Notes under the pieces: model-generated
The model's input: only the letters and a program-made list of their open reading frames with translations
What the model was told of the DNA's origin: nothing
The model's database searches: none
Program-made: the position numbers and the translations under genes
Shown: positions 40,356 through 47,033 of the stretch, piece after piece
Numbering within the stretch: position 1 is the first letter of the stretch
How the letters are laid out: the number at the start of each line of letters is the position of its first letter
Assembly: GCA_963976215.1 (NCBI GenBank)
Contig: CAXBJV010000014.1
Coordinates: 6,158 to 70,157 of the forward strand
Direction of reading: 5' to 3'
Source of the DNA: an uncultured Woeseiaceae bacterium
GTDB lineage: Bacteria > Pseudomonadota > Gammaproteobacteria > Steroidobacterales > Woeseiaceae
Length of the DNA stretch: 64,000 nt

Positions 40356-41963
40356 CTATTGCTCCCAGCGCACACCCAGGTTGTACTGGTAGCGTTCAAA
40401 CTGGATACGCGGATCGTTGGATACCGTTTCCCGGTAGCGGCCTTCAGCGACCAGGCTCAAATGGCGCGTCATCTGGAATTCTGCTGTCAGGCTGATCTCC
40501 GCCGATTCGTGTGTCTTGCGCGGGGAGTTCGGGTTATTGAAGGCGAATGCATTCGGGTAGTCGTAAAGGTGGTAGATGCCACGGGCCTCGAATTCGAAGC
40601 GCTCGCCCGGGTCCCAGTGAATTTCCACGCCGGCGCTGTCGCGCGTGTAGTCGTAGTAGCCGACATACTGATCGATGCGCTCGGTGCGTTGTGCGTCGAA
40701 GCCAAACCAGAGGCTGCCGAAAATACGCTGCCGTGCCGTTAACTCCAGCGCATAATAGTCATAGCGAATATTGGGATTGCCCTGGCGCGGCGTGCCGTCG
40801 AGGTCATAGGCCACGCGATCGCCAAAGCGGCGGCTGTACCCTTCCGCGGTAATGCGAAACAGCGACGACGATGTAAATTTGTACTGTCCATACAGCCGCA
40901 ACAGGAAATACTCGTGATCGTATTCAGGCACGAGGTCCTGTGATTCGTAATTCCACAGCTGCCCCTTGATCGTTGCGCCGATGGCGAGACGTTCGTGCGA
41001 TTGTCGCAGTCGCAGTTCCGGTCCATAGCGCAGGTAGTTCAGCCGGTCGTCGAGCAGCATGCCATTGAAGTCGCGCGTGGTACCGTCGTCCGGATCGAAA
41101 TAGGTTTCCACGTGTTGCGATATCGTGAAGGCACTGCGCACCTGGCGCTCTCGGCTACCTTCCTTGCGCTGATACTCGCTACCGAAACTCGCCTCATGCT
41201 GATACTCGTTGGCGTTCTCCAGTTCCTTGTCCTGGTAATAACGACCAGCAAGTCGGTAGCGAACATAAAACCCCTCGAACTTGAGGCTGTTGATCAGGTA
41301 TTTGGCATTCAGGCTGACCGGAATAAAGGCACCCGACTGTACGACAGGAACCACTGTTGGCGCGGCCGGATCGGACTGGTCGGTATACGGGTCTTCAGGC
41401 GAACGAAACACGTTGTCGTCGGTGCCAAACCCGACACGAATGCGAAACTGTAAGTCGGCGAACTTGCGTTTTTCTTCGCGCTCGGCAACGCGAATCTCGA
41501 AGTCGTCCAACTGCGCCTGTTCAGCGCGAATTCGGTCGATCGCAACAACGGCATACGATTGAATCTTCTCGCTGCGGTTCTGGTCGCGCGCCAGGCGAAA
41601 CCAGCGCAGTGCTTCTTCGATGTCACCAAGCGCGTAAGCATTGAGGCCGAGGTTGTATTGCGCGGTGATCTGCAGTGCCGGATCGTCAAGCGCCTGCAGC
41701 AGTTCGTCCCGCGCGCGAATGTGTTGACCGGCACGGTAATGCGCAACGCCCATGTTGTAATGCAGCGTCGGCGTATCCATGCCCTCTTCCTGCGCCTGTC
41801 GATAGCGCAGCAAGGCCGCCCAGTACAGGTCGTCACGAAACAAGCGGTTACCGTCGTCAAAATACTGGCTGGCCGTCATGGCATGTGCCGGTACGAGCGG
41901 CAGCAAACCGATGATTGCTGCCAGCAATGCCGGGCAAACCGTGCGATGAATCTTCTTGAGCAT
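40356..41963 (-). CDS. Outer-membrane protein: signal peptide + N-terminal TPR domain + C-terminal beta-barrel
   Basis: 535 aa. Signal peptide ending PAHA. TPR-like repeats at about residues 30-150 (YNMGVAHYRAG, AQYNLGLNAYALGD). The C-terminal ~360 aa show an alternating aromatic/polar beta-strand pattern ending YNLGVRWEQ. Confidence 0.7.
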   Translation of the reverse strand: MLKKIHRTVCPALLAAIIGLLPLVPAHAMTASQYFDDGNRLFRDDLYWAALLRYRQAQEEGMDTPTLHYNMGVAHYRAGQHIRARDELLQALDDPALQITAQYNLGLNAYALGDIEEALRWFRLARDQNRSEKIQSYAVVAIDRIRAEQAQLDDFEIRVAEREEKRKFADLQFRIRVGFGTDDNVFRSPEDPYTDQSDPAAPTVVPVVQSGAFIPVSLNAKYLINSLKFEGFYVRYRLAGRYYQDKELENANEYQHEASFGSEYQRKEGSRERQVRSAFTISQHVETYFDPDDGTTRDFNGMLLDDRLNYLRYGPELRLRQSHERLAIGATIKGQLWNYESQDLVPEYDHEYFLLRLYGQYKFTSSSLFRITAEGYSRRFGDRVAYDLDGTPRQGNPNIRYDYYALELTARQRIFGSLWFGFDAQRTERIDQYVGYYDYTRDSAGVEIHWDPGERFEFEARGIYHLYDYPNAFAFNNPNSPRKTHESAEISLTAEFQMTRHLSLVAEGRYRETVSNDPRIQFERYQYNLGVRWEQ

Positions 41964-42040
41964 TTGGGTGGAATCGGCTCGCGTTATGTCAGATTTGAAA
42001 GAGTACAGACTAAAGGGGTCATAAAACTATGACGTAGTCG

Positions 42041-42079
42041 AAAAAAATCCCCCCGAAAGGCTGGCAATCGGGAGGATTT
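42041..42079 (-). terminator. Intrinsic terminator after the polyacidic protein gene
   Basis: The minus-strand RNA is AAUCCUCCCGA-(11-nt loop)-UCGGGGGGAUU followed by a U-run. The stem is 11 bp with one mismatch. It begins 26 nt after the stop at 42105. Confidence 0.6.
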
Positions 42080-42104
42080 GAGGTTTCAGGCGGTTTGCGG
42101 GTGT

Positions 42105-42614
42105 TTAGTCGACCACGGCGCTGTCGTCATCATCGTCGTCGTCATCCTCATCCTCCATATCGTCATCCATGTCGTCGTCGTCATCTTCGACCGGGATGTC
42201 GTCTTCAATTTCGTCACCGTCTTCGAAGTCGTCGTCATTCTCGAGCTCATCTTCGTGCTCTTCTTCCTCTTCGTCACGATCGAAATCGTCCTCTTCATCG
42301 TCCTCGTCAACGAAGTCGTCCTCGTCCTCTTCCTCTTCTTCGTTACGGCGATCTTCATCGTCATCGATTTCGTCTTCGCCGCGGTCATTCTCGCGTTCTT
42401 CCTCTTGTTCCTCGTCGCGTTGCTCGTCTTCGTCGATGTCATCGTCGTCAGGGCCGCGCATCTCGGCAATTGCCTCGTCCAGATCATCGGCATCGTCAAC
42501 AATGATCATTGTGACGTCGAGGTCGTCCATGGCGTCATCCGCGTGCGCAAGGCCCGGGAAAAGTGCGAAACAGGTAAGCACCAGTGTTGCTGCAAAAATA
42601 GTAAGTTGTTTCAT
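42105..42614 (-). CDS. Secreted hyper-acidic (Asp/Glu-rich) low-complexity protein
   Basis: 169 aa. GGAG lies 8 nt upstream of the ATG. Signal peptide MKQLTIFAATLVLTCFALFPGLAHA. By my count the mature ~144 aa contain 96 D/E, 7 R and no K. The gene starts 12 nt after the anti-sigma candidate stop. Confidence 0.65.
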   Translation of the reverse strand: MKQLTIFAATLVLTCFALFPGLAHADDAMDDLDVTMIIVDDADDLDEAIAEMRGPDDDDIDEDEQRDEEQEEERENDRGEDEIDDDEDRRNEEEEEDEDDFVDEDDEEDDFDRDEEEEEHEDELENDDDFEDGDEIEDDIPVEDDDDDMDDDMEDEDDDDDDDDSAVVD

Positions 42615-42626
42615 CGTACTGCTCCG

Positions 42627-43163
42627 TTAACTGACGTCGATGCGCAGGCGAAAGGTCCGGCCGCGATCGTTGTGAACCAAAGTTGCAAAAACCTCACCGC
42701 CAACCGGCGATGTGGCTATCAATTTGAGTGGCAACAGATTCTTGCCTTCGCTCAGGCTGGTTTGCCACGTGACTTCGCGTTGTCCAGGAAATCCGGATAA
42801 CTCGATGCCATCGGGCAGGCTGACGGTGAGCGTTGCCGAATCGAGTGCTTGCGCCGATGCGAACACGAGCTTCACAGTTTGCGGTTCGGCAAGCGTCATC
42901 GTGATACCGGGTATTGCGGGCTCCGCTGTCGGCAGCTCCGGTGTAGCAAGAAAGACGATACTGATCATCCAGAGGGCCAGACCGGCCGCAACTGCCGTGC
43001 CAAAACCGGTCATCAACCAGCGGTTCCGCTGACGACGCGTGCCCTCGTGGGTTGCACGCACCAGTGCCTGGTCAAAAAAGCCTGCGTCTGCCTCGGGCAT
43101 CGGGTAGTCCTTTAGTAATGCCTGGATCGCCTGATCCTGTTTGTCGATGTCGTCGTTTCGCAT
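42627..43163 (-). CDS. Single-pass membrane protein, probable anti-sigma factor
   Basis: 178 aa with a ~50-aa cytoplasmic N-terminal segment, one TM segment (FGTAVAAGLALWMISIVFLA) and a ~105-aa periplasmic domain. It starts 30 nt after the ECF sigma gene. No HxxxCxxC motif is present. Confidence 0.6.
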   Translation of the reverse strand: MRNDDIDKQDQAIQALLKDYPMPEADAGFFDQALVRATHEGTRRQRNRWLMTGFGTAVAAGLALWMISIVFLATPELPTAEPAIPGITMTLAEPQTVKLVFASAQALDSATLTVSLPDGIELSGFPGQREVTWQTSLSEGKNLLPLKLIATSPVGGEVFATLVHNDRGRTFRLRIDVS

Positions 43164-43193: not shown

Positions 43194-43736
43194 TCACAGG
43201 GATGAAAAGGTTCCGTCGGCCTGAAGAATTTCCCGCAGGCGGGCGCGGGCGCGGTGCAGCCGGGACTTGACAGTGCCGACCGGGATACCCATAAGTTTCT
43301 GAATTTCCGTGAGTTTATAGCCCTCGGTATCGTGCAGAAGCACAATAACGCGATGCTCGTCACTGAGTTGGGCGAGGGCCTTGTCGAGCATCTTGATGCG
43401 CTCAAGGCGTTGCTGGTCATGAACCGGATCGTCGCTGGCCGGAAAGCCGGCGATGCCGTCGTCCGATAATGCGCCTTCGTCCACCGTGCGCATTCGATGC
43501 CGGGCGAAGCGCCGCCGCTCATCGATAAACAGGTTGTACATCATGCGCGCCAGCCAGGAACCCGGCTCGTCAATGCGGACAAGGTCGTCGAGCTTGCCGT
43601 AGGCCTTGATCAAAAGCTCCTGAAACAGGTCCTCGGCCTCCGCCTTCTGTCCCGCCAGACGCCAGGCCAGGCGATACAGCCGCTCAAAATGCGGTCGCAC
43701 GAGAGTTTCAAACGTCTGTTGGCTGGAACGGGTCAT
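43194..43736 (-). CDS. ECF (group 4) sigma-70 family RNA polymerase sigma factor
   Basis: 180 aa. Region 2 (LFQELLIKAY, SWLARMMYNLFIDERRR) and region 4 (LTEIQKLMGIPVGTVKSRLHRAR) are recognisable. Confidence 0.9.
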   Translation of the reverse strand: MTRSSQQTFETLVRPHFERLYRLAWRLAGQKAEAEDLFQELLIKAYGKLDDLVRIDEPGSWLARMMYNLFIDERRRFARHRMRTVDEGALSDDGIAGFPASDDPVHDQQRLERIKMLDKALAQLSDEHRVIVLLHDTEGYKLTEIQKLMGIPVGTVKSRLHRARARLREILQADGTFSSL

Positions 43737-43826
43737 TGCAGACGCAGTGTAGAACGAATGACGGCTGGAGCAAGGAACGGGTTGGTAATCCGGAGATCGG
43801 TGGCGGCATTCAGCCGGGGTATTTGC

Positions 43827-44944: not shown

Positions 44945-45721
44945 TCAGGGGATTCTTGTGACGACAGTACCCGCAATTAAATCGTGAAGAGCACGGCGCT
45001 TCTTGCTAAACAACATCGTGACGATCTCAACAAGCCACCACGTCATCGCAACGATTCCCGTGCCCATCAGAATAATTTCTGCAGTCCTGGTCAGTTCACC
45101 GCTGTCTTCGGTTACACCAAAGCCGAGAAAGTAGAATAAAGAAATGCAGGCAAACAACACGGGCACTATATCTCGGAGGACAGACTGTTTTAGCGTAATT
45201 TCCCGGGACTCAGACTTGTCCCAAACCTTGACGTGCGTTGCCATTTTGCCAACGGTTTGACCGTAATTGGCGTGCATGGCGATATAGTAAATTAGTACGA
45301 CGAACTGGCTGACCTGATCGACATAAGCTTTGGCAGCGGGTCGGAGAATATCCGCGCCATGCAACACGGACAGAATCACGACCAGAGGCAAGCCGACGAC
45401 AAACCCGTCAATAAAATGTGCCCAGAACCGCCGCCAGAACGTTCGATATTTATTCTCTTCCGTTACTTCGAACGGCCTCAATAGCGTGAATCCACCGAGC
45501 TTTTCTATTTCTCCAAGCAAGCGCTCGGCATACTCGGGGTGTTTCTGCTTGTCGAGTACGAAGTAACAATCCTCAAGTTCGACGACTGACCTCGGCTCCC
45601 TTTTCAGGAGCTCACTCTGCAGGGCGTCGAATACGTGTGGATACAGGTCACCTCGTATCGAGTTGAGGACGTGATATAGCTCAACGAGAGAATAGTCCGC
45701 GTAGTTGGGTATCTTGACCAA
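44945..45721 (-). CDS. RDD family membrane protein with an extra N-terminal soluble domain
   Basis: 258 aa. The RDD-type core starts at RRFWAHFIDGFVV and ends with RRALHDLIAGTVV. The TTG start abuts the upstream stop (TAATTG). Confidence 0.75.
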   Translation of the reverse strand: MVKIPNYADYSLVELYHVLNSIRGDLYPHVFDALQSELLKREPRSVVELEDCYFVLDKQKHPEYAERLLGEIEKLGGFTLLRPFEVTEENKYRTFWRRFWAHFIDGFVVGLPLVVILSVLHGADILRPAAKAYVDQVSQFVVLIYYIAMHANYGQTVGKMATHVKVWDKSESREITLKQSVLRDIVPVLFACISLFYFLGFGVTEDSGELTRTAEIILMGTGIVAMTWWLVEIVTMLFSKKRRALHDLIAGTVVTRIP

Positions 45722-46933
45722 TTATTCGACCTTGCGAATGACCACGCGTCGATTGAGGGCGCGACCCTGGGGAGAGTCGTTGTCGGCTTCGGGCTGGCTT
45801 TCGCCTTTGCCAATGGTTTCGATTCGGTCAGCTTCGATGCCTTTGTCGATCAACCAGGACTTAACGGACTCTGCTCGTCCCGCTGACAGCTCCATGTTGT
45901 ATTCGTCCGCACCCTGGGCATCGGTATGGCCTTCGATCAGGATTCGCCATGTCGGCTCTGTCGTCAACGCATCGAGCAGAGCATCCAGTGTTTGCCTGGA
46001 GTCGGCCCGCAATTTTGCTGAGTCGAGATCAAAGCGAATGCCGTAAAGCGTTGCTGTGCCGCCTTGCTTGATGGCGGAGGTCACCAGGTTGGTTTGACCG
46101 GTCTGGCACACCGGCTCACGACCGTCCGTAACCAGTGGGCCGCGCCAAACGCCCATCAAGCGGCCACCTTCATACCAAAGACCATTCAGGAAAGTCGCGT
46201 CTTCGGTTAGCACCATTACCGCTGAGCCTACCTGCGGACCATCTTCACGCCATTCGAACCGAATCACACGGCCATCGGTGTCACCGCTTAACGTACCGTT
46301 GTCATGGTCATAGCAGCCTTCAACGGACCGCCCGGTCTGCACGATTCGCATCAGGTTGTAGTTTGTTGCGAACACGCCGGAAAGATTCTTTTTCTCCCCG
46401 GATGCGAGACGTTCGCCGTATGCCTCAAGCTCCATAATCTCGGTGTACTTGGGTGCGCCCCAGTTGTCCGCTACATGCAGCCGTAGCCACCGCACCGGCT
46501 CATCATGCTCGACAGCGAATTCCGTCCGGGTTTCGTCACCGGCTTGACCGGAAACAAGCTCGCGGTAGCCGTCCCCGGCAGACGTCGCCGACCCATACAG
46601 CGTGAAATTCCTGGCCCCGCGACGCTTGCCATCTATTCCGTTGGTGTCAATGACAAAGCTTGAAAGCCGGGTTGGGTCGGCGAGCTCTATGGTGATTTCA
46701 TTGTCGGCGATTGCGCCGGACTTTGTCGCCCAGCCGGTCTTCGTGGTGCCATCGATCAGCGCCAGGCCTCCCCAGGACGATGCATTGTATTCACTCGTTA
46801 CGTTCAGCACGATCGCGCCACTAACCAGGTCGAGCACGTCGTCCGCCGGCTGTTCCGGGGCCTCAGGTGCTTGCGCGATCGCGGTGTGGCAACACACGCT
46901 GAGCTGTAGAATCGCAAACCAGAATAAACGCAT
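45722..46933 (-). CDS. Secreted discoidin (F5/8 type C)-like domain + OmpA C-terminal peptidoglycan-binding domain protein
   Basis: The start at 46933 (MRLFWFAILQL) has a GGAGGA Shine-Dalgarno 7 nt upstream. The C-terminus LIEGHTDAQGADEYNMELSAGRAESV...NRRVVI is OmpA_C-like. Confidence 0.8.
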   Translation of the reverse strand: MRLFWFAILQLSVCCHTAIAQAPEAPEQPADDVLDLVSGAIVLNVTSEYNASSWGGLALIDGTTKTGWATKSGAIADNEITIELADPTRLSSFVIDTNGIDGKRRGARNFTLYGSATSAGDGYRELVSGQAGDETRTEFAVEHDEPVRWLRLHVADNWGAPKYTEIMELEAYGERLASGEKKNLSGVFATNYNLMRIVQTGRSVEGCYDHDNGTLSGDTDGRVIRFEWREDGPQVGSAVMVLTEDATFLNGLWYEGGRLMGVWRGPLVTDGREPVCQTGQTNLVTSAIKQGGTATLYGIRFDLDSAKLRADSRQTLDALLDALTTEPTWRILIEGHTDAQGADEYNMELSAGRAESVKSWLIDKGIEADRIETIGKGESQPEADNDSPQGRALNRRVVIRKVE

Positions 46934-47033
46934 CGATTTTTCCTCCATTAATTGCCGGGCCAGATCAGATAAATGCCACCCATTTAGTTAGCAATGGCGG
47001 TGAGCCCAAGAATTGCATCAGCCCGTATGCGCA

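What the first reader, a model, noticed from the sequence alone, without database searches (positions are those of the whole stretch)
42105..42614. Hyper-acidic signal-peptide protein in a DNA stretch open in five reading frames
The ORF track shows five overlapping long ORFs here: 42078-42800 (+), 42095-42505 (+), 42169-42630 (+), 42086-42502 (-) and 42105-42614 (-). This happens because about 400 bp consist almost entirely of GAN codons on the minus strand.

Only 42105-42614 (-) has supporting context:
- GGAG lies 8 nt upstream of the ATG.
- It has a credible signal peptide ending AHA.
- It is tightly coupled to the upstream gene.
- A terminator follows it.

By my count the mature ~144 aa contain 96 D/E, 7 R and no K, a net charge near -89. 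That is extreme for a bacterial exported protein.

Cys15 sits in a non-canonical lipobox (VLTC), so lipidation cannot be fully excluded. The triplet-repeat-like DNA could also vary in length between strains.
Basis: seen in the sequence. Interest (0 to 1): 0.7.

Follow-up and report, generated by a model that had tools for sequence, protein, structure and literature searches.

The report
Hyper-acidic exported protein in sigma-factor operon
This is a real gene for a small, exported, largely unstructured protein that is two-thirds aspartate and glutamate; it is always encoded just after an envelope-stress sigma factor and its anti-sigma factor in Woeseiales, a dominant group of marine-sediment bacteria, and no known protein family matches it.

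Summary
Window 42105-42614 (-) encodes a 169-aa protein with a Sec signal peptide. Its mature part has 95 D/E, 7 R and 0 K, a net charge of -88.

The five open frames follow directly from GAN codon runs. Only the acidic frame is conserved: it is open in 69/69 orthologues, shows third-position variation, and all indels between close species are multiples of 3.

The family is specific to Woeseiales. It has 73 species genomes, about 200 clusters at 50% identity, and no Pfam, NCBIfam or PDB relative.

Conserved parts:
- a signal peptide;
- an N-terminal module, LDDLDVTMEV..D..I..MRGP;
- an EF-hand-like motif, DDFEDGEDVDDDEF.

The acidic linker and tail between and after these are hypervariable (D/E 33-69% of the mature protein). 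In one sister lineage, otherwise identical strains differ in copy number of a 12-nt repeat.

The gene is the third in an ECF sigma / anti-sigma operon, and a conserved terminator follows it. An adjacent gene encodes an outer-membrane protein with TPR repeats and a 16-strand beta-barrel.

The lipoprotein reading is rejected: Cys15 is conserved in only 21/67 species.

Function is inferred, not shown. The protein is most likely a periplasmic polyanionic cation binder coupled to ECF signalling.

The parts
43746..43774 (-). Sigma-70-like promoter of the operon: CTTGCT (43774-43769), a 17-nt spacer, then TACACT (43751-43746). The -10 element ends 9 nt before the sigma gene's ATG, so the mRNA is nearly leaderless.
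   Evidence: The sequence is. The pattern CCTTG-N17-TA(c/a/g)ACT, 8-13 nt before the ATG, is conserved in most of 60 orthologous upstream regions. Function is inferred only.
43194..43736 (-). ECF-type sigma-70 family sigma factor, 180 aa; first gene of the operon.
   Evidence: Pfam Sigma70_r2, Sigma70_r4_2 and Sigma70_ECF all hit. NCBIfam TIGR02937 sigma70-ECF scores 88.3 bits against a cut-off of 42.9. The gene is present upstream of the acidic gene in 68 of 73 genome loci.
42627..43163 (-). Single-pass membrane anti-sigma factor, 178 aa. It has a short cytoplasmic N-terminus, a TM segment at about residues 49-74, and a highly conserved periplasmic domain of about 100 aa of unknown fold. The window's copy lacks the zinc-finger N-terminus.
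   Evidence: The window copy has no Pfam or NCBIfam hit. Orthologues in L020, L041, L066 and L068 carry an N-terminal zf-HC2 anti-sigma zinc finger (PF13490, E = 3e-9 and 2e-8). A family profile has no PDB relative.
42622..42625 (-). Shine-Dalgarno GGAG, 7 nt before the acidic gene's ATG and inside the 12-nt gap after the anti-sigma stop codon.
   Evidence: Sequence. An SD-like motif is present in 66 of 71 orthologues. The commonest gap between the anti-sigma stop and the acidic start is 12 nt.
42540..42614 (-). Sec signal peptide (residues 1-25, MKQLTIFAATLVLTCFALFPGLAHA). Predicted signal-peptidase-I cleavage is after AHA.
   Evidence: The n/h/c organisation can be read directly from the sequence. 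It is conserved across the family, with invariant K2 and P20 and with A or G at position -1. AF2 predicts a helix here with pLDDT about 86. No SignalP tool was available.
42450..42530 (-). Conserved N-terminal module M1 (residues 29-55, MDDLDVTMIIVDDADDLDEAIAEMRGP). It has a strand-like alternation (L-x-V-x-M-x-V), then a short amphipathic helix, then RGP.
   Evidence: This is the most conserved part of the family. AF2 predicts a helix at residues 42-50. The third-position excess of variation was measured around this motif. A profile of the signal peptide plus M1 (alignment A2) has no PDB relative.
42108..42449 (-). Hyper-acidic, intrinsically disordered region (residues 56-169), followed by the stop codon at 42105-42107.
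   Evidence: D/E make up 66% of the mature protein, the 5th highest of 71 orthologues. AF2 gives pLDDT 50-60 with no secondary structure. Length and sequence are hypervariable between species, with in-frame indels only.
42192..42248 (-). Conserved motif M3 inside the acidic region (residues 123-141, ELENDDDFEDGDEIEDDIP). The family consensus is (L/M)ExEDDFEDGED(V/I)D(D/E)DEF, which resembles an EF-hand loop.
   Evidence: M3 is conserved in most orthologues, including the least acidic ones (L074, L078, L079). The consensus matches 11 of 13 positions of PROSITE PS00018. It matches exactly in 3 of 72 orthologues, two of them (L041, L063) at M3. The window's copy fails at positions 12 and 13.
42041..42075 (-). 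Intrinsic terminator of the sigma / anti-sigma / acidic operon: stem CCUCCCGA / UCGGGGGG followed by U7.
   Evidence: Folding gives -18.9 kcal/mol. A hairpin plus T-run is found in 64 of 69 loci, median -18.8 kcal/mol. The stems show compensatory changes between species, e.g. L011 and L017.
41982..42035 (-). Conserved non-coding region upstream of the beta-barrel gene: ACGTCATAGTTTT (42035-42023) ... GTACTC (42006-42001) ... TCTGACATAACG (41993-41982). It is probably the barrel gene's promoter or operator.
   Evidence: Columns are 70-100% conserved across 68 species. The motif occurs once in the window. No Rfam family matches. Function is unknown.
40356..41963 (-). Neighbouring gene for a 535-aa outer-membrane protein: signal peptide, TPR domain (about residues 30-165), and a 16-strand beta-barrel.
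   Evidence: Pfam TPR_2 and TPR_4 hit, and BBP2_2 hits weakly. The AF2 model has mean pLDDT 85 and 16 strands. Foldseek returns only generic barrels such as FadL, BcsC, porins and AlgE, with TM-score 0.38 or lower relative to the query. The gene follows the acidic gene directly in 62 of 63 genome loci.

Best explanation
Shown:
- 42105-42614 (-) is a genuine protein-coding gene under purifying selection.
- It is the third gene of a sigma-70-family ECF sigma / membrane anti-sigma operon found only in Woeseiales, and a conserved intrinsic terminator closes that operon.
- The product has a Sec-type signal peptide with an AxA cleavage site.
- It also has a conserved N-terminal module of about 27 aa (M1), a conserved EF-hand-like acidic-aromatic motif (M3), and otherwise a disordered Asp/Glu polymer that evolves fast.

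Inferred:
- After export, the mature protein of about 17 kDa and charge -88 stays in the periplasm or cell envelope as a high-capacity, low-affinity binder of divalent cations (Ca2+, Mg2+, metals) or other polycations.
- It is functionally coupled to the ECF system in a CpxP-like dual way: it is both a working envelope component and an accessory or feedback input to the anti-sigma factor with which it is co-translated.
- The conserved motifs M1 and M3 are docking sites for a protein partner. The variable acidic bulk supplies the charge.
For: The gene is real:
- The acidic frame is open in 69 of 69 intact orthologues, while every other frame is interrupted in many of them.
- Third-codon-position entropy is 22.4, against 9.2 and 7.9 for positions 1 and 2.
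- All 33 indels in 14 close species pairs are multiples of 3 and lie in the acidic part.
- There are 73 species-level genomes and 201 clusters at 50% identity.

The protein is exported:
- The n/h/c signal peptide with an AxA site is conserved.
- AF2 predicts only the signal-peptide helix and a short helix at residues 42-50; the rest is disordered.

Operon linkage:
- Sigma plus anti-sigma lie directly upstream in 68 of 73 genome loci.
- An acidic gene follows the anti-sigma gene in every metagenome locus that has enough downstream DNA.
- The commonest gap between the two genes is 12 nt, and 66 of 71 orthologues have an SD-like motif.
- A terminator follows in 64 of 69 loci, and its stems show covariation.

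The upstream gene is an anti-sigma factor: orthologues carry zf-HC2.

Cation binding:
- Composition: 66% D/E, pI about 4.
- M3 matches 11 of 13 EF-hand loop positions, and matches exactly in some orthologues.

Coupling of acidity to the sigma system: the four lineages that lost sigma and anti-sigma have less acidic proteins (D/E 0.33-0.53 against a median of 0.61; Mann-Whitney p = 0.003, not corrected for phylogeny).

Precedent: in Caulobacter, the periplasmic EF-hand protein CaBP forms a regulatory loop with the adjacent ECF sigma SigV (PMC13171946).
Against: - There is no experimental or expression evidence of any kind.
- No canonical Ca2+-binding domain is present. PS00018 matches are not enriched over shuffles (3 observed, 4.3 expected), and the window's own M3 fails at two positions.
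- The acidic gene stays intact, with M1 and M3 conserved, in lineages where sigma and anti-sigma were deleted (L005/L006 with remnants, L072, L074, L078). So M1's partner is not only the anti-sigma factor, and the protein is not merely a regulator.
- The anti-sigma periplasmic domain is itself mildly acidic (pI about 5). It therefore cannot bind the tail by charge.
- The operon promoter looks sigma-70-like rather than ECF-like, so induction by the ECF sigma is not shown.
- All loci come from one bacterial order with conserved synteny, so gene neighbourhood is weak evidence of function.
Confidence: 0.4

Rival explanations
1. The acidic protein is cargo or a partner of the adjacent TPR / 16-strand beta-barrel outer-membrane protein. 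After Sec export, M1 or M3 docks on the periplasmic TPR domain. The disordered polyanion is then threaded to the cell surface or the medium. There it forms a ribosomally made anionic coat, for example against mineral encrustation or for cation capture in sediment.
For: - The barrel gene follows the acidic gene directly in 62 of 63 genome loci. By contrast, 12 of 66 loci have an insertion of 0.5 kb or more between the barrel gene and uvrD.
- The barrel is present in every lineage, including those that lost sigma and anti-sigma but kept M1 and M3.
- The TPR-plus-barrel architecture is that of polymer exporters. BcsC is among the top Foldseek hits, and AlgE is also listed.
- Lumen-facing residues are Arg-rich: 21 R, with K+R = 25 against D+E = 19. 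This is a rough estimate made from strand periodicity.
Against: - A conserved terminator and a separate conserved upstream region put the barrel gene in a different transcription unit.
- All the synteny comes from one order, where uvrD and trkA are also syntenic.
- Foldseek matches are generic, with TM-score 0.38 or lower relative to the query.
- The barrel as a whole and its TPR domain are acidic (pI about 5.1-5.4).
- There is no DUF560/Slam signature.
- No interaction prediction could be run.
Confidence: 0.2
2. The protein is a passive effector only. It acts as a periplasmic fixed polyanion (Donnan or osmotic role, like anionic periplasmic glucans) or as a decoy sponge for cationic toxins, polyamines or metals. 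It has no signalling role, and the operon link only ensures co-expression.
For: - Extreme charge and disorder.
- Acidity and length drift freely between species and even between strains. That pattern is expected if bulk charge is what matters.
- The gene persists without sigma and anti-sigma in some lineages.
Against: - M1 and M3 are strongly conserved even in members with only 33% D/E. This argues for specific protein contacts beyond bulk charge.
- The tight 12-nt coupling to the anti-sigma gene in about 150 loci is typical of proteins that act together.
Confidence: 0.2
3. The protein is a lipoprotein, anchored through Cys15 in a VLTC lipobox.
For: Cys15 is preceded by V-L-T in the window's copy and in its close relatives.
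Against: - Thr at position -1 is outside the lipobox consensus [LVI][ASTVI][GAS]C (established knowledge).
- The position is Cys in only 21 of 67 species; elsewhere it is L 17, V 7, A 7, S 6 and G 3.
- The hydrophobic core continues past Cys15 to a conserved AxA site.
Confidence: 0.02
4. There is no real gene in the acidic frame. The ORF is a by-product of simple-sequence DNA, or another frame (poly-Ser on the plus strand, or the K/T-rich minus frame) is the one translated.
For: Five frames are open in the window. A few database entries read the K/T frame (P0002, P0189, L044, L138).
Against: - The alternative frames are interrupted in 28-60 of 69 orthologues, while the acidic frame is never interrupted.
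- The codon-position pattern and the in-frame indels fit only the acidic frame.
- The K/T-frame entries are frameshifted versions that begin in the acidic frame. For L044 and L073 a sequencing-error origin is suspected (long-read MAGs) but was not tested.
Confidence: 0.01

Closest known systems
RseB / MucB in rpoE-rseA-rseB type operons
   Same: The gene order is the same: ECF sigma, then a single-pass anti-sigma, then an exported protein encoded immediately downstream. RseB binds the periplasmic domain of RseA and gates its proteolysis.
   Different: There is no sequence or fold relationship and no Pfam hit. RseB is a folded two-domain protein, whereas this one is a disordered polyanion. This gene also survives loss of the anti-sigma factor in some lineages.
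CpxP (periplasmic accessory protein of the Cpx envelope-stress system)
   Same: It is a small exported protein that is both a working envelope factor and a feedback input to the membrane sensor. This is the dual role proposed here.
   Different: CpxP is a helical LTXXQ dimer that acts on a histidine kinase, not on an anti-sigma factor. There is no homology. The analogy is functional only and was not tested.
Caulobacter CaBP-SigV circuit (PMC13171946)
   Same: It is a small (133 aa), Sec-exported, acidic periplasmic Ca2+-binding protein encoded next to an ECF sigma gene. Each regulates the other.
   Different: CaBP has three canonical EF-hands and a different gene arrangement: the sigV promoter lies inside cabp. 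The present family has at most one degenerate EF-hand-like loop and far higher charge.
Calsequestrin-type polyacidic, high-capacity low-affinity Ca2+ buffers
   Same: Both show an extreme excess of Asp/Glu and disordered acidic tails. Both are expected to bind many cations electrostatically.
   Different: Calsequestrin is eukaryotic and has folded thioredoxin-like domains. There is no homology and no Pfam hit. Cation binding by the present protein has not been tested.
TPR-plus-beta-barrel polymer exporters (BcsC, PgaA, AlgK/AlgE) and Slam / type XI secretion
   Same: The neighbouring 535-aa protein has the same overall layout: a periplasmic TPR domain fused to an outer-membrane barrel. Slam genes typically sit next to their cargo genes.
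   Different: Structural similarity is only generic (TM-score 0.38 or lower). There is no DUF560 hit, and TPR_Slam scores E = 1.5. The model has 16 strands, against 14 in Slam. The known cargos are polysaccharides, lipoproteins or folded proteins, not a polyacidic disordered protein.

Membership tests
Sec-exported protein with a signal-peptidase-I site | A positively charged n-region, a hydrophobic h-region, and a c-region with small residues at -3 and -1. | tested here: met
   MK-QLTIFAATLVLTCFALF-PGLAHA|DD. K2, P20 and the A before the cleavage site are invariant in the aligned homologues. A rough heuristic finds A or G at position -1 in 71 of 71 orthologues. No SignalP run was possible.
Bacterial lipoprotein | A lipobox [LVI][ASTVI][GAS]C with an invariant Cys at +1. 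| tested here: not met
   The window has V-L-T-C, with Thr at position -1. The position is Cys in only 21 of 67 orthologues.
EF-hand Ca2+-binding proteins | The 12/13-residue loop of PROSITE PS00018, normally paired and flanked by helices. | tested here: inconclusive
   The window protein has no PS00018 match. The M3 consensus matches 11 of 13 positions. Three of 72 orthologues match exactly, two of them (L041, L063) at M3. Hits are not enriched over shuffles (3 observed, 4.3 expected). AF2 predicts no flanking helices.
RseB/MucB (PF03888) or CpxP/Spy (LTXXQ) periplasmic regulators | Sequence membership in the Pfam family. | tested here: not met
   No Pfam family reaches E < 0.01, and there are no relevant hits up to E = 10. 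NCBIfam gives no hit. A profile of the signal peptide plus M1 (alignment A2) finds no PDB relative.
ECF sigma factor (upstream gene 43194-43736) | Sigma-70 regions 2 and 4 only, with a match to the sigma70-ECF model above its cut-off. | tested here: met
   PF04542, PF08281 and PF07638 hit. TIGR02937 scores 88.3 bits against a cut-off of 42.9.
Zinc-binding anti-sigma factor (ZAS, zf-HC2) (gene 42627-43163) | An N-terminal HxxxCxxC anti-sigma domain, followed by a TM segment and an extracytoplasmic domain. | tested here: inconclusive
   Orthologues in L041, L068 and L020 have zf-HC2 (E = 3e-9, 2e-8 and 0.02). The window's copy and most orthologues start about 35 aa later and lack H/C/C. They keep only the distal part of the cytoplasmic segment.
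Slam / type XI secretion (neighbouring barrel 40356-41963) | An N-terminal TPR_Slam domain plus a 14-strand DUF560 barrel. | tested here: not met
   There is no DUF560 hit, and TPR_Slam scores E = 1.5 over the wrong region. The AF2 model has 16 strands.
Exopolysaccharide TPR-barrel exporters (BcsC/PgaA/AlgE type) | Specific structural or sequence similarity, and location in a polysaccharide-synthesis operon. | tested here: not met
   Foldseek hits BcsC at E = 1e-9 but with TM-score only 0.36, no better than porins or FadL. No synthase genes are nearby; the neighbours are uvrD and trkA/trkH.

The most novel reading that the evidence does not exclude
Woeseiales make a ribosomally encoded polyanion. 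Its conserved N-terminal strand-helix module and EF-hand-like motif hand it to the dedicated neighbouring TPR / 16-strand barrel, which threads the disordered Asp/Glu chain to the cell surface. This would be a protein counterpart of alginate or poly-gamma-glutamate export and a new outer-membrane secretion route. The ECF sigma / anti-sigma pair would monitor the periplasmic pool. The charge and length of the coat would be tunable by repeat slippage.
Probability: 0.1. Interest if true: 0.85.

Novelty: new variant of a known kind. Interest (0 to 1): 0.55.

Why it matters
Woeseiales (the JTB255 group) are among the most abundant bacteria in marine sediments. This gene is part of a cluster conserved across the order, yet it has no annotation, no domain and no structural relative.

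An exported protein with net charge near -90 is at the extreme of bacterial proteomes. If it binds cations and feeds into an ECF anti-sigma factor, it would be a new kind of periplasmic sensor or buffer module for envelope ion homeostasis in a mineral-rich habitat. If it is instead exported by the neighbouring barrel, it would define a new secretion route.

There are also practical points:
- The region is a trap for gene callers, because five frames are open.
- It is a trap for assemblers, because many contigs end inside it.
- In some lineages its 12-nt repeats behave as strain-level length markers.

Tried and rejected
- A homology search with the full acidic protein gave only 18 hits, because poly-D/E words swamped the candidate list. 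Searching with an alignment of the N-terminal 57 aa worked better.
- Pfam, NCBIfam and PDB sequence searches found nothing for the acidic protein, for the signal-peptide-plus-M1 profile (A2), or for the anti-sigma periplasmic domain.
- The simple terminator scan missed the real terminator because its loop is longer than 8 nt. Direct folding recovered it.
- P0001, a 65-aa in-frame deletion variant, was considered as strain-level variation. I rejected it as probably an assembly artefact: its contig has 2.3x coverage and a second 54-nt deletion in the conserved barrel N-terminus.
- I looked for an ECF-type (AAC-N16/17-CGT) autoregulatory promoter upstream of the sigma gene and upstream of the barrel gene. 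No conserved match was found. The conserved pattern upstream of sigma looks sigma-70-like.
- Rfam found no family in the conserved intergenic region. The only hit was a sub-threshold NsiR1 match over the terminator.
- Foldseek on the barrel gave only generic barrel matches.
- The metagenome scan anchored on the anti-sigma factor was meant to reach distant relatives in other taxa. It returned only close Woeseiales relatives (69-80% identity), so no independent genomic context was obtained.
- Literature searches found no description of this family.
- The tools do not allow multi-chain structure prediction, so M1 docking to the anti-sigma factor or to the TPR domain could not be tested.
Full report
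**1. The observation.**

The minus-strand ORF 42105-42614 encodes 169 aa. After the predicted cleavage at AHA|DD, the mature 144 residues contain 59 Asp, 36 Glu, 7 Arg, no Lys and 1 His. That is a net charge of -88 and a pI of about 4. Of the 144 mature codons, 95 are GAN.

- GGAG ends 7 nt before the ATG.
- The upstream ORF stops 12 nt before the ATG.
- A hairpin plus U7 terminator follows at 42041-42075 (-18.9 kcal/mol).

The "five open frames" need no special explanation. GAN repeats cannot generate stop codons in five of the six frames. Only the frame that reads GAT|GA as TGA is closed. In 69 orthologues that frame has 15.6 stops on average. The DNA itself is only cryptically repetitive.

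**2. Which frame is real.**

- Homologues found with the whole protein and with an alignment of the N-terminal 57 residues all share the signal peptide and an N-terminal motif, and all continue in the acidic frame.
- A scan of one genome per species found 73 loci.
- In 69 intact orthologues the acidic frame is never interrupted. The other frames are open in only 0-41 of them.
- Around the conserved motif, nucleotide variability is 9.2 / 7.9 / 22.4 for codon positions 1 / 2 / 3.
- In 14 pairs of closely related species (75-94% nt identity), all 33 indels are multiples of three and fall in the acidic part.
- A fifteenth pair tested involves L044, one of the few frameshifted copies (also L073, L138, P0002, P0189). 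I suspect long-read or low-coverage assembly errors, but did not test this.

The alternative frames, including the poly-Ser frame, are therefore by-products.

**3. Anatomy of the family.**

Lengths run from 130 to about 270 aa. D+E makes up 33-69% of the mature protein, with a median of 61%. The window's copy, at 66%, ranks 5th of 71.

Four things are conserved:
- A signal peptide with an AxA-type site.
- Module M1, (L)DDL(D/E)VTMEV.DD...(I/L)D..I..M(R)GP. Its first half alternates hydrophobic and polar residues like a beta-strand. AF2 predicts its second half as a short helix, residues 42-50.
- A Trp in DDDDWEDE and an FEHD-like motif in many members.
- Motif M3, (L/M)E.EDDFEDGED(V/I)D(D/E)DEF.

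M1 and M3 persist even in the least acidic, Ala-rich members (L074, L078, L079). So hyper-acidity is a variable, lineage-amplified trait laid over a conserved motif scaffold. Everything outside the signal peptide and the short helix is predicted to be disordered (pLDDT 50-60).

M3 resembles an EF-hand loop. The consensus matches 11 of 13 PS00018 positions, and the match is exact in L041 and L063. However, such matches are not enriched over shuffles, and the window's own copy deviates at two positions.

The Cys15 "lipobox" is not conserved: the position is Cys in 21 of 67 species. Lipidation is rejected.

Pfam, NCBIfam and PDB sequence searches give no relative.

**4. Length variation.**

Between species, different acidic repeats have expanded: ESED, EYED, EDEM/EDEL/EDEF, ESDH and RERE.

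Five contigs from five samples have an identical 500 nt upstream, and four of them an identical 400 nt downstream (L094 has 9 mismatches there). Their coding sequences are identical apart from one mismatch, but the genes are 504, 528, 528, 552 and 576 nt long. The difference is copy number of a 12-nt unit, GAGTCCGAAGAC / GAGTACGAAGA(C/T). This is strain-level repeat variation, or at least assembly-level allele variation, in a sister lineage.

For the window's own lineage, four contigs are identical. The single shorter variant, P0001/L083, is probably an assembly artefact.

The region also breaks assemblies. Of 57 metagenome loci where my first-pass scan found the acidic gene, 13 end inside it. 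Many database entries are partial for the same reason.

**5. Genomic context.**

The window matches a Tara Oceans scaffold. All named relatives are Woeseiaceae, Woeseia, or unclassified gammaproteobacterial MAGs.

The minus-strand gene order is: ECF sigma (43194-43736), a 178-aa single-pass membrane protein (42627-43163), the acidic gene, a terminator, a 535-aa TPR/beta-barrel protein (40356-41963), uvrD, trkA, trkH.

- **Anti-sigma factor.** The 178-aa protein is an anti-sigma factor. Several orthologues carry an N-terminal zf-HC2 domain. The window's copy and most others have lost that segment. Its periplasmic domain is the best-conserved part and has no known relative.
- **Operon linkage.** Sigma plus anti-sigma precede the acidic gene in 68 of 73 genome loci. 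Every metagenome locus anchored on the anti-sigma factor that has enough downstream DNA has the acidic gene next. The commonest intergenic gap is 12 nt.
- **Terminator.** It is present in 64 of 69 loci and shows compensatory stem changes.
- **Promoter.** Upstream of the sigma gene, a conserved CCTTG-N17-TAnACT lies 8-13 nt from the ATG. This suggests a sigma-70-type, nearly leaderless promoter rather than a classic ECF promoter.
- **Lineages without sigma and anti-sigma.** In L005/L006, L072, L074 and L078 these two genes are missing. In L005, remnants of sigma region 4 and of the anti-sigma C-terminus are still visible. The acidic gene there is intact and keeps M1 and M3. These proteins are less acidic than the rest (p = 0.003, uncorrected for phylogeny).

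**6. The neighbouring barrel.**

AF2 gives a confident model (mean pLDDT 85): a signal peptide, a TPR domain, and a 16-strand barrel. Foldseek finds only generic barrels (FadL, BcsC, porins, AlgE) with TM-scores of 0.38 or lower relative to the query. There is no DUF560/Slam signature.

The barrel gene directly follows the acidic gene in 62 of 63 loci. By contrast, 12 of 66 loci have insertions of 0.5 kb or more between the barrel gene and uvrD.

The barrel gene has its own conserved upstream region, ACGTCATAGTTTT ... GTACTC ... TCTGACATAACG. This region has no Rfam match.

A crude estimate from strand periodicity suggests an Arg-rich lumen, with K+R = 25 against D+E = 19. The protein as a whole is acidic.

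**7. Interpretation.**

*Shown:* this is a real, exported, disordered polyanion, encoded as the third gene of an ECF sigma / anti-sigma operon in one abundant bacterial order.

*Inferred:* it binds cations or polycations in the envelope and is functionally coupled to the ECF system. A CpxP-like dual role, both working component and feedback input, fits three facts:
- the tight coupling to the anti-sigma gene;
- the survival of the gene after loss of the sigma pair;
- the drop in acidity in those lineages.

A published precedent for a periplasmic Ca2+-binding protein in a loop with a neighbouring ECF sigma exists in Caulobacter (PMC13171946).

The main rival is that the protein is cargo or a partner of the adjacent TPR-barrel. 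This is attractive because M1 and M3 are conserved wherever the barrel is, and the barrel is present in every lineage. The support is only synteny within one order.

A purely passive polyanion role is a further possibility. Conservation of M1 and M3 argues against it.

The lipoprotein, wrong-frame and artefact readings are rejected.

**8. Novelty and verdict.**

The operon layout (sigma, anti-sigma, exported accessory protein) is a known kind. A hyper-acidic disordered protein in the third position, with its own conserved motifs and repeat-driven length variation, has no described counterpart that I could find. It also has no database family. I class it as a new variant of a known kind.

Interest is moderate to high (0.55). 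The anatomy is clear and the clade is ecologically important, but the function rests on inference.

Noticed in passing
window 41982-42035 (-); same position in L005-L082: A strongly conserved non-coding block lies between the operon terminator and the barrel gene: ACGTCATAGTTTT ... GTACTC ... TCTGACATAACG. Columns are 70-100% conserved across 68 species whose barrel proteins are only about 50-80% identical. It has no Rfam match and occurs once in the window. In L074 and L078, ACGTCA is replaced by (G/A)TTTCA. It is probably a promoter or operator, but the regulator is unknown.
   Followed up: partly
window 43746-43774 (-) and orthologous regions: The ECF sigma gene is preceded by a conserved sigma-70-like -35/-10 pair, CCTTGC-N17-TAcACT. 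Its -10 element ends only 8-13 nt before the ATG, and there is no Shine-Dalgarno sequence. This implies a leaderless or nearly leaderless mRNA. An upstream AAAnTGCCAAC box is also conserved. No ECF-type AAC...CGT promoter is conserved.
   Followed up: partly
window 42627-43163 (-) compared with L020, L041, L066, L068: The anti-sigma factor has lost its N-terminal zinc-finger (HxxxCxxC, zf-HC2) segment in the window's lineage and in most Woeseiaceae. Some Woeseia-like genomes keep it. Only about 45 cytoplasmic residues remain, which raises the question of how the truncated protein still binds the sigma factor.
   Followed up: partly
L005 5700-5950 (and L006): An in-situ deletion removed most of the sigma gene and nearly all of the anti-sigma gene. 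What remains is a fused remnant of sigma region 4 plus the last about 10 codons of the anti-sigma gene, directly upstream of an intact acidic gene. L072, L074 and L078 also lack both genes.
   Followed up: partly
L090, L091, L094, L095, L096 (acidic gene): Contigs from five samples, with identical or near-identical flanks, differ by 24, 24, 48 and 72 nt in a 12-nt tandem repeat (GAGTCCGAAGAC / GAGTACGAAGAY) that encodes ESED/EYED units. This behaves like a variable-number tandem repeat inside a coding region.
   Followed up: yes
metagenome hits P0139-P0194, L084-L163: Many database entries for this family are truncated at contig ends or frameshifted. Thirteen of the 57 loci where my first-pass scan found the acidic gene end inside it. 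The acidic repeat region systematically breaks short-read assemblies and misleads gene callers.
   Followed up: partly
window 40356-41963 (-): The 535-aa neighbour is a confident TPR plus 16-strand beta-barrel outer-membrane protein (mean pLDDT 85). It has more than 1100 database relatives at 90% clustering but no functional annotation beyond 'TPR repeat protein'. Its C-terminus hits BBP2_2 (PF10082) weakly.
   Followed up: partly
L063 8411-10611: This is the only genome locus with an insertion between the acidic gene and the barrel gene (about 2.2 kb). The inserted sequence was not examined.
   Followed up: no
window 44945-46948 (-): Upstream of the cluster lie an RDD-family membrane protein and a protein with F5/8 type C (discoidin) and OmpA domains, according to the gene table of the source scaffold. 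They were not studied. The genes upstream of the sigma gene differ between species.
   Followed up: no
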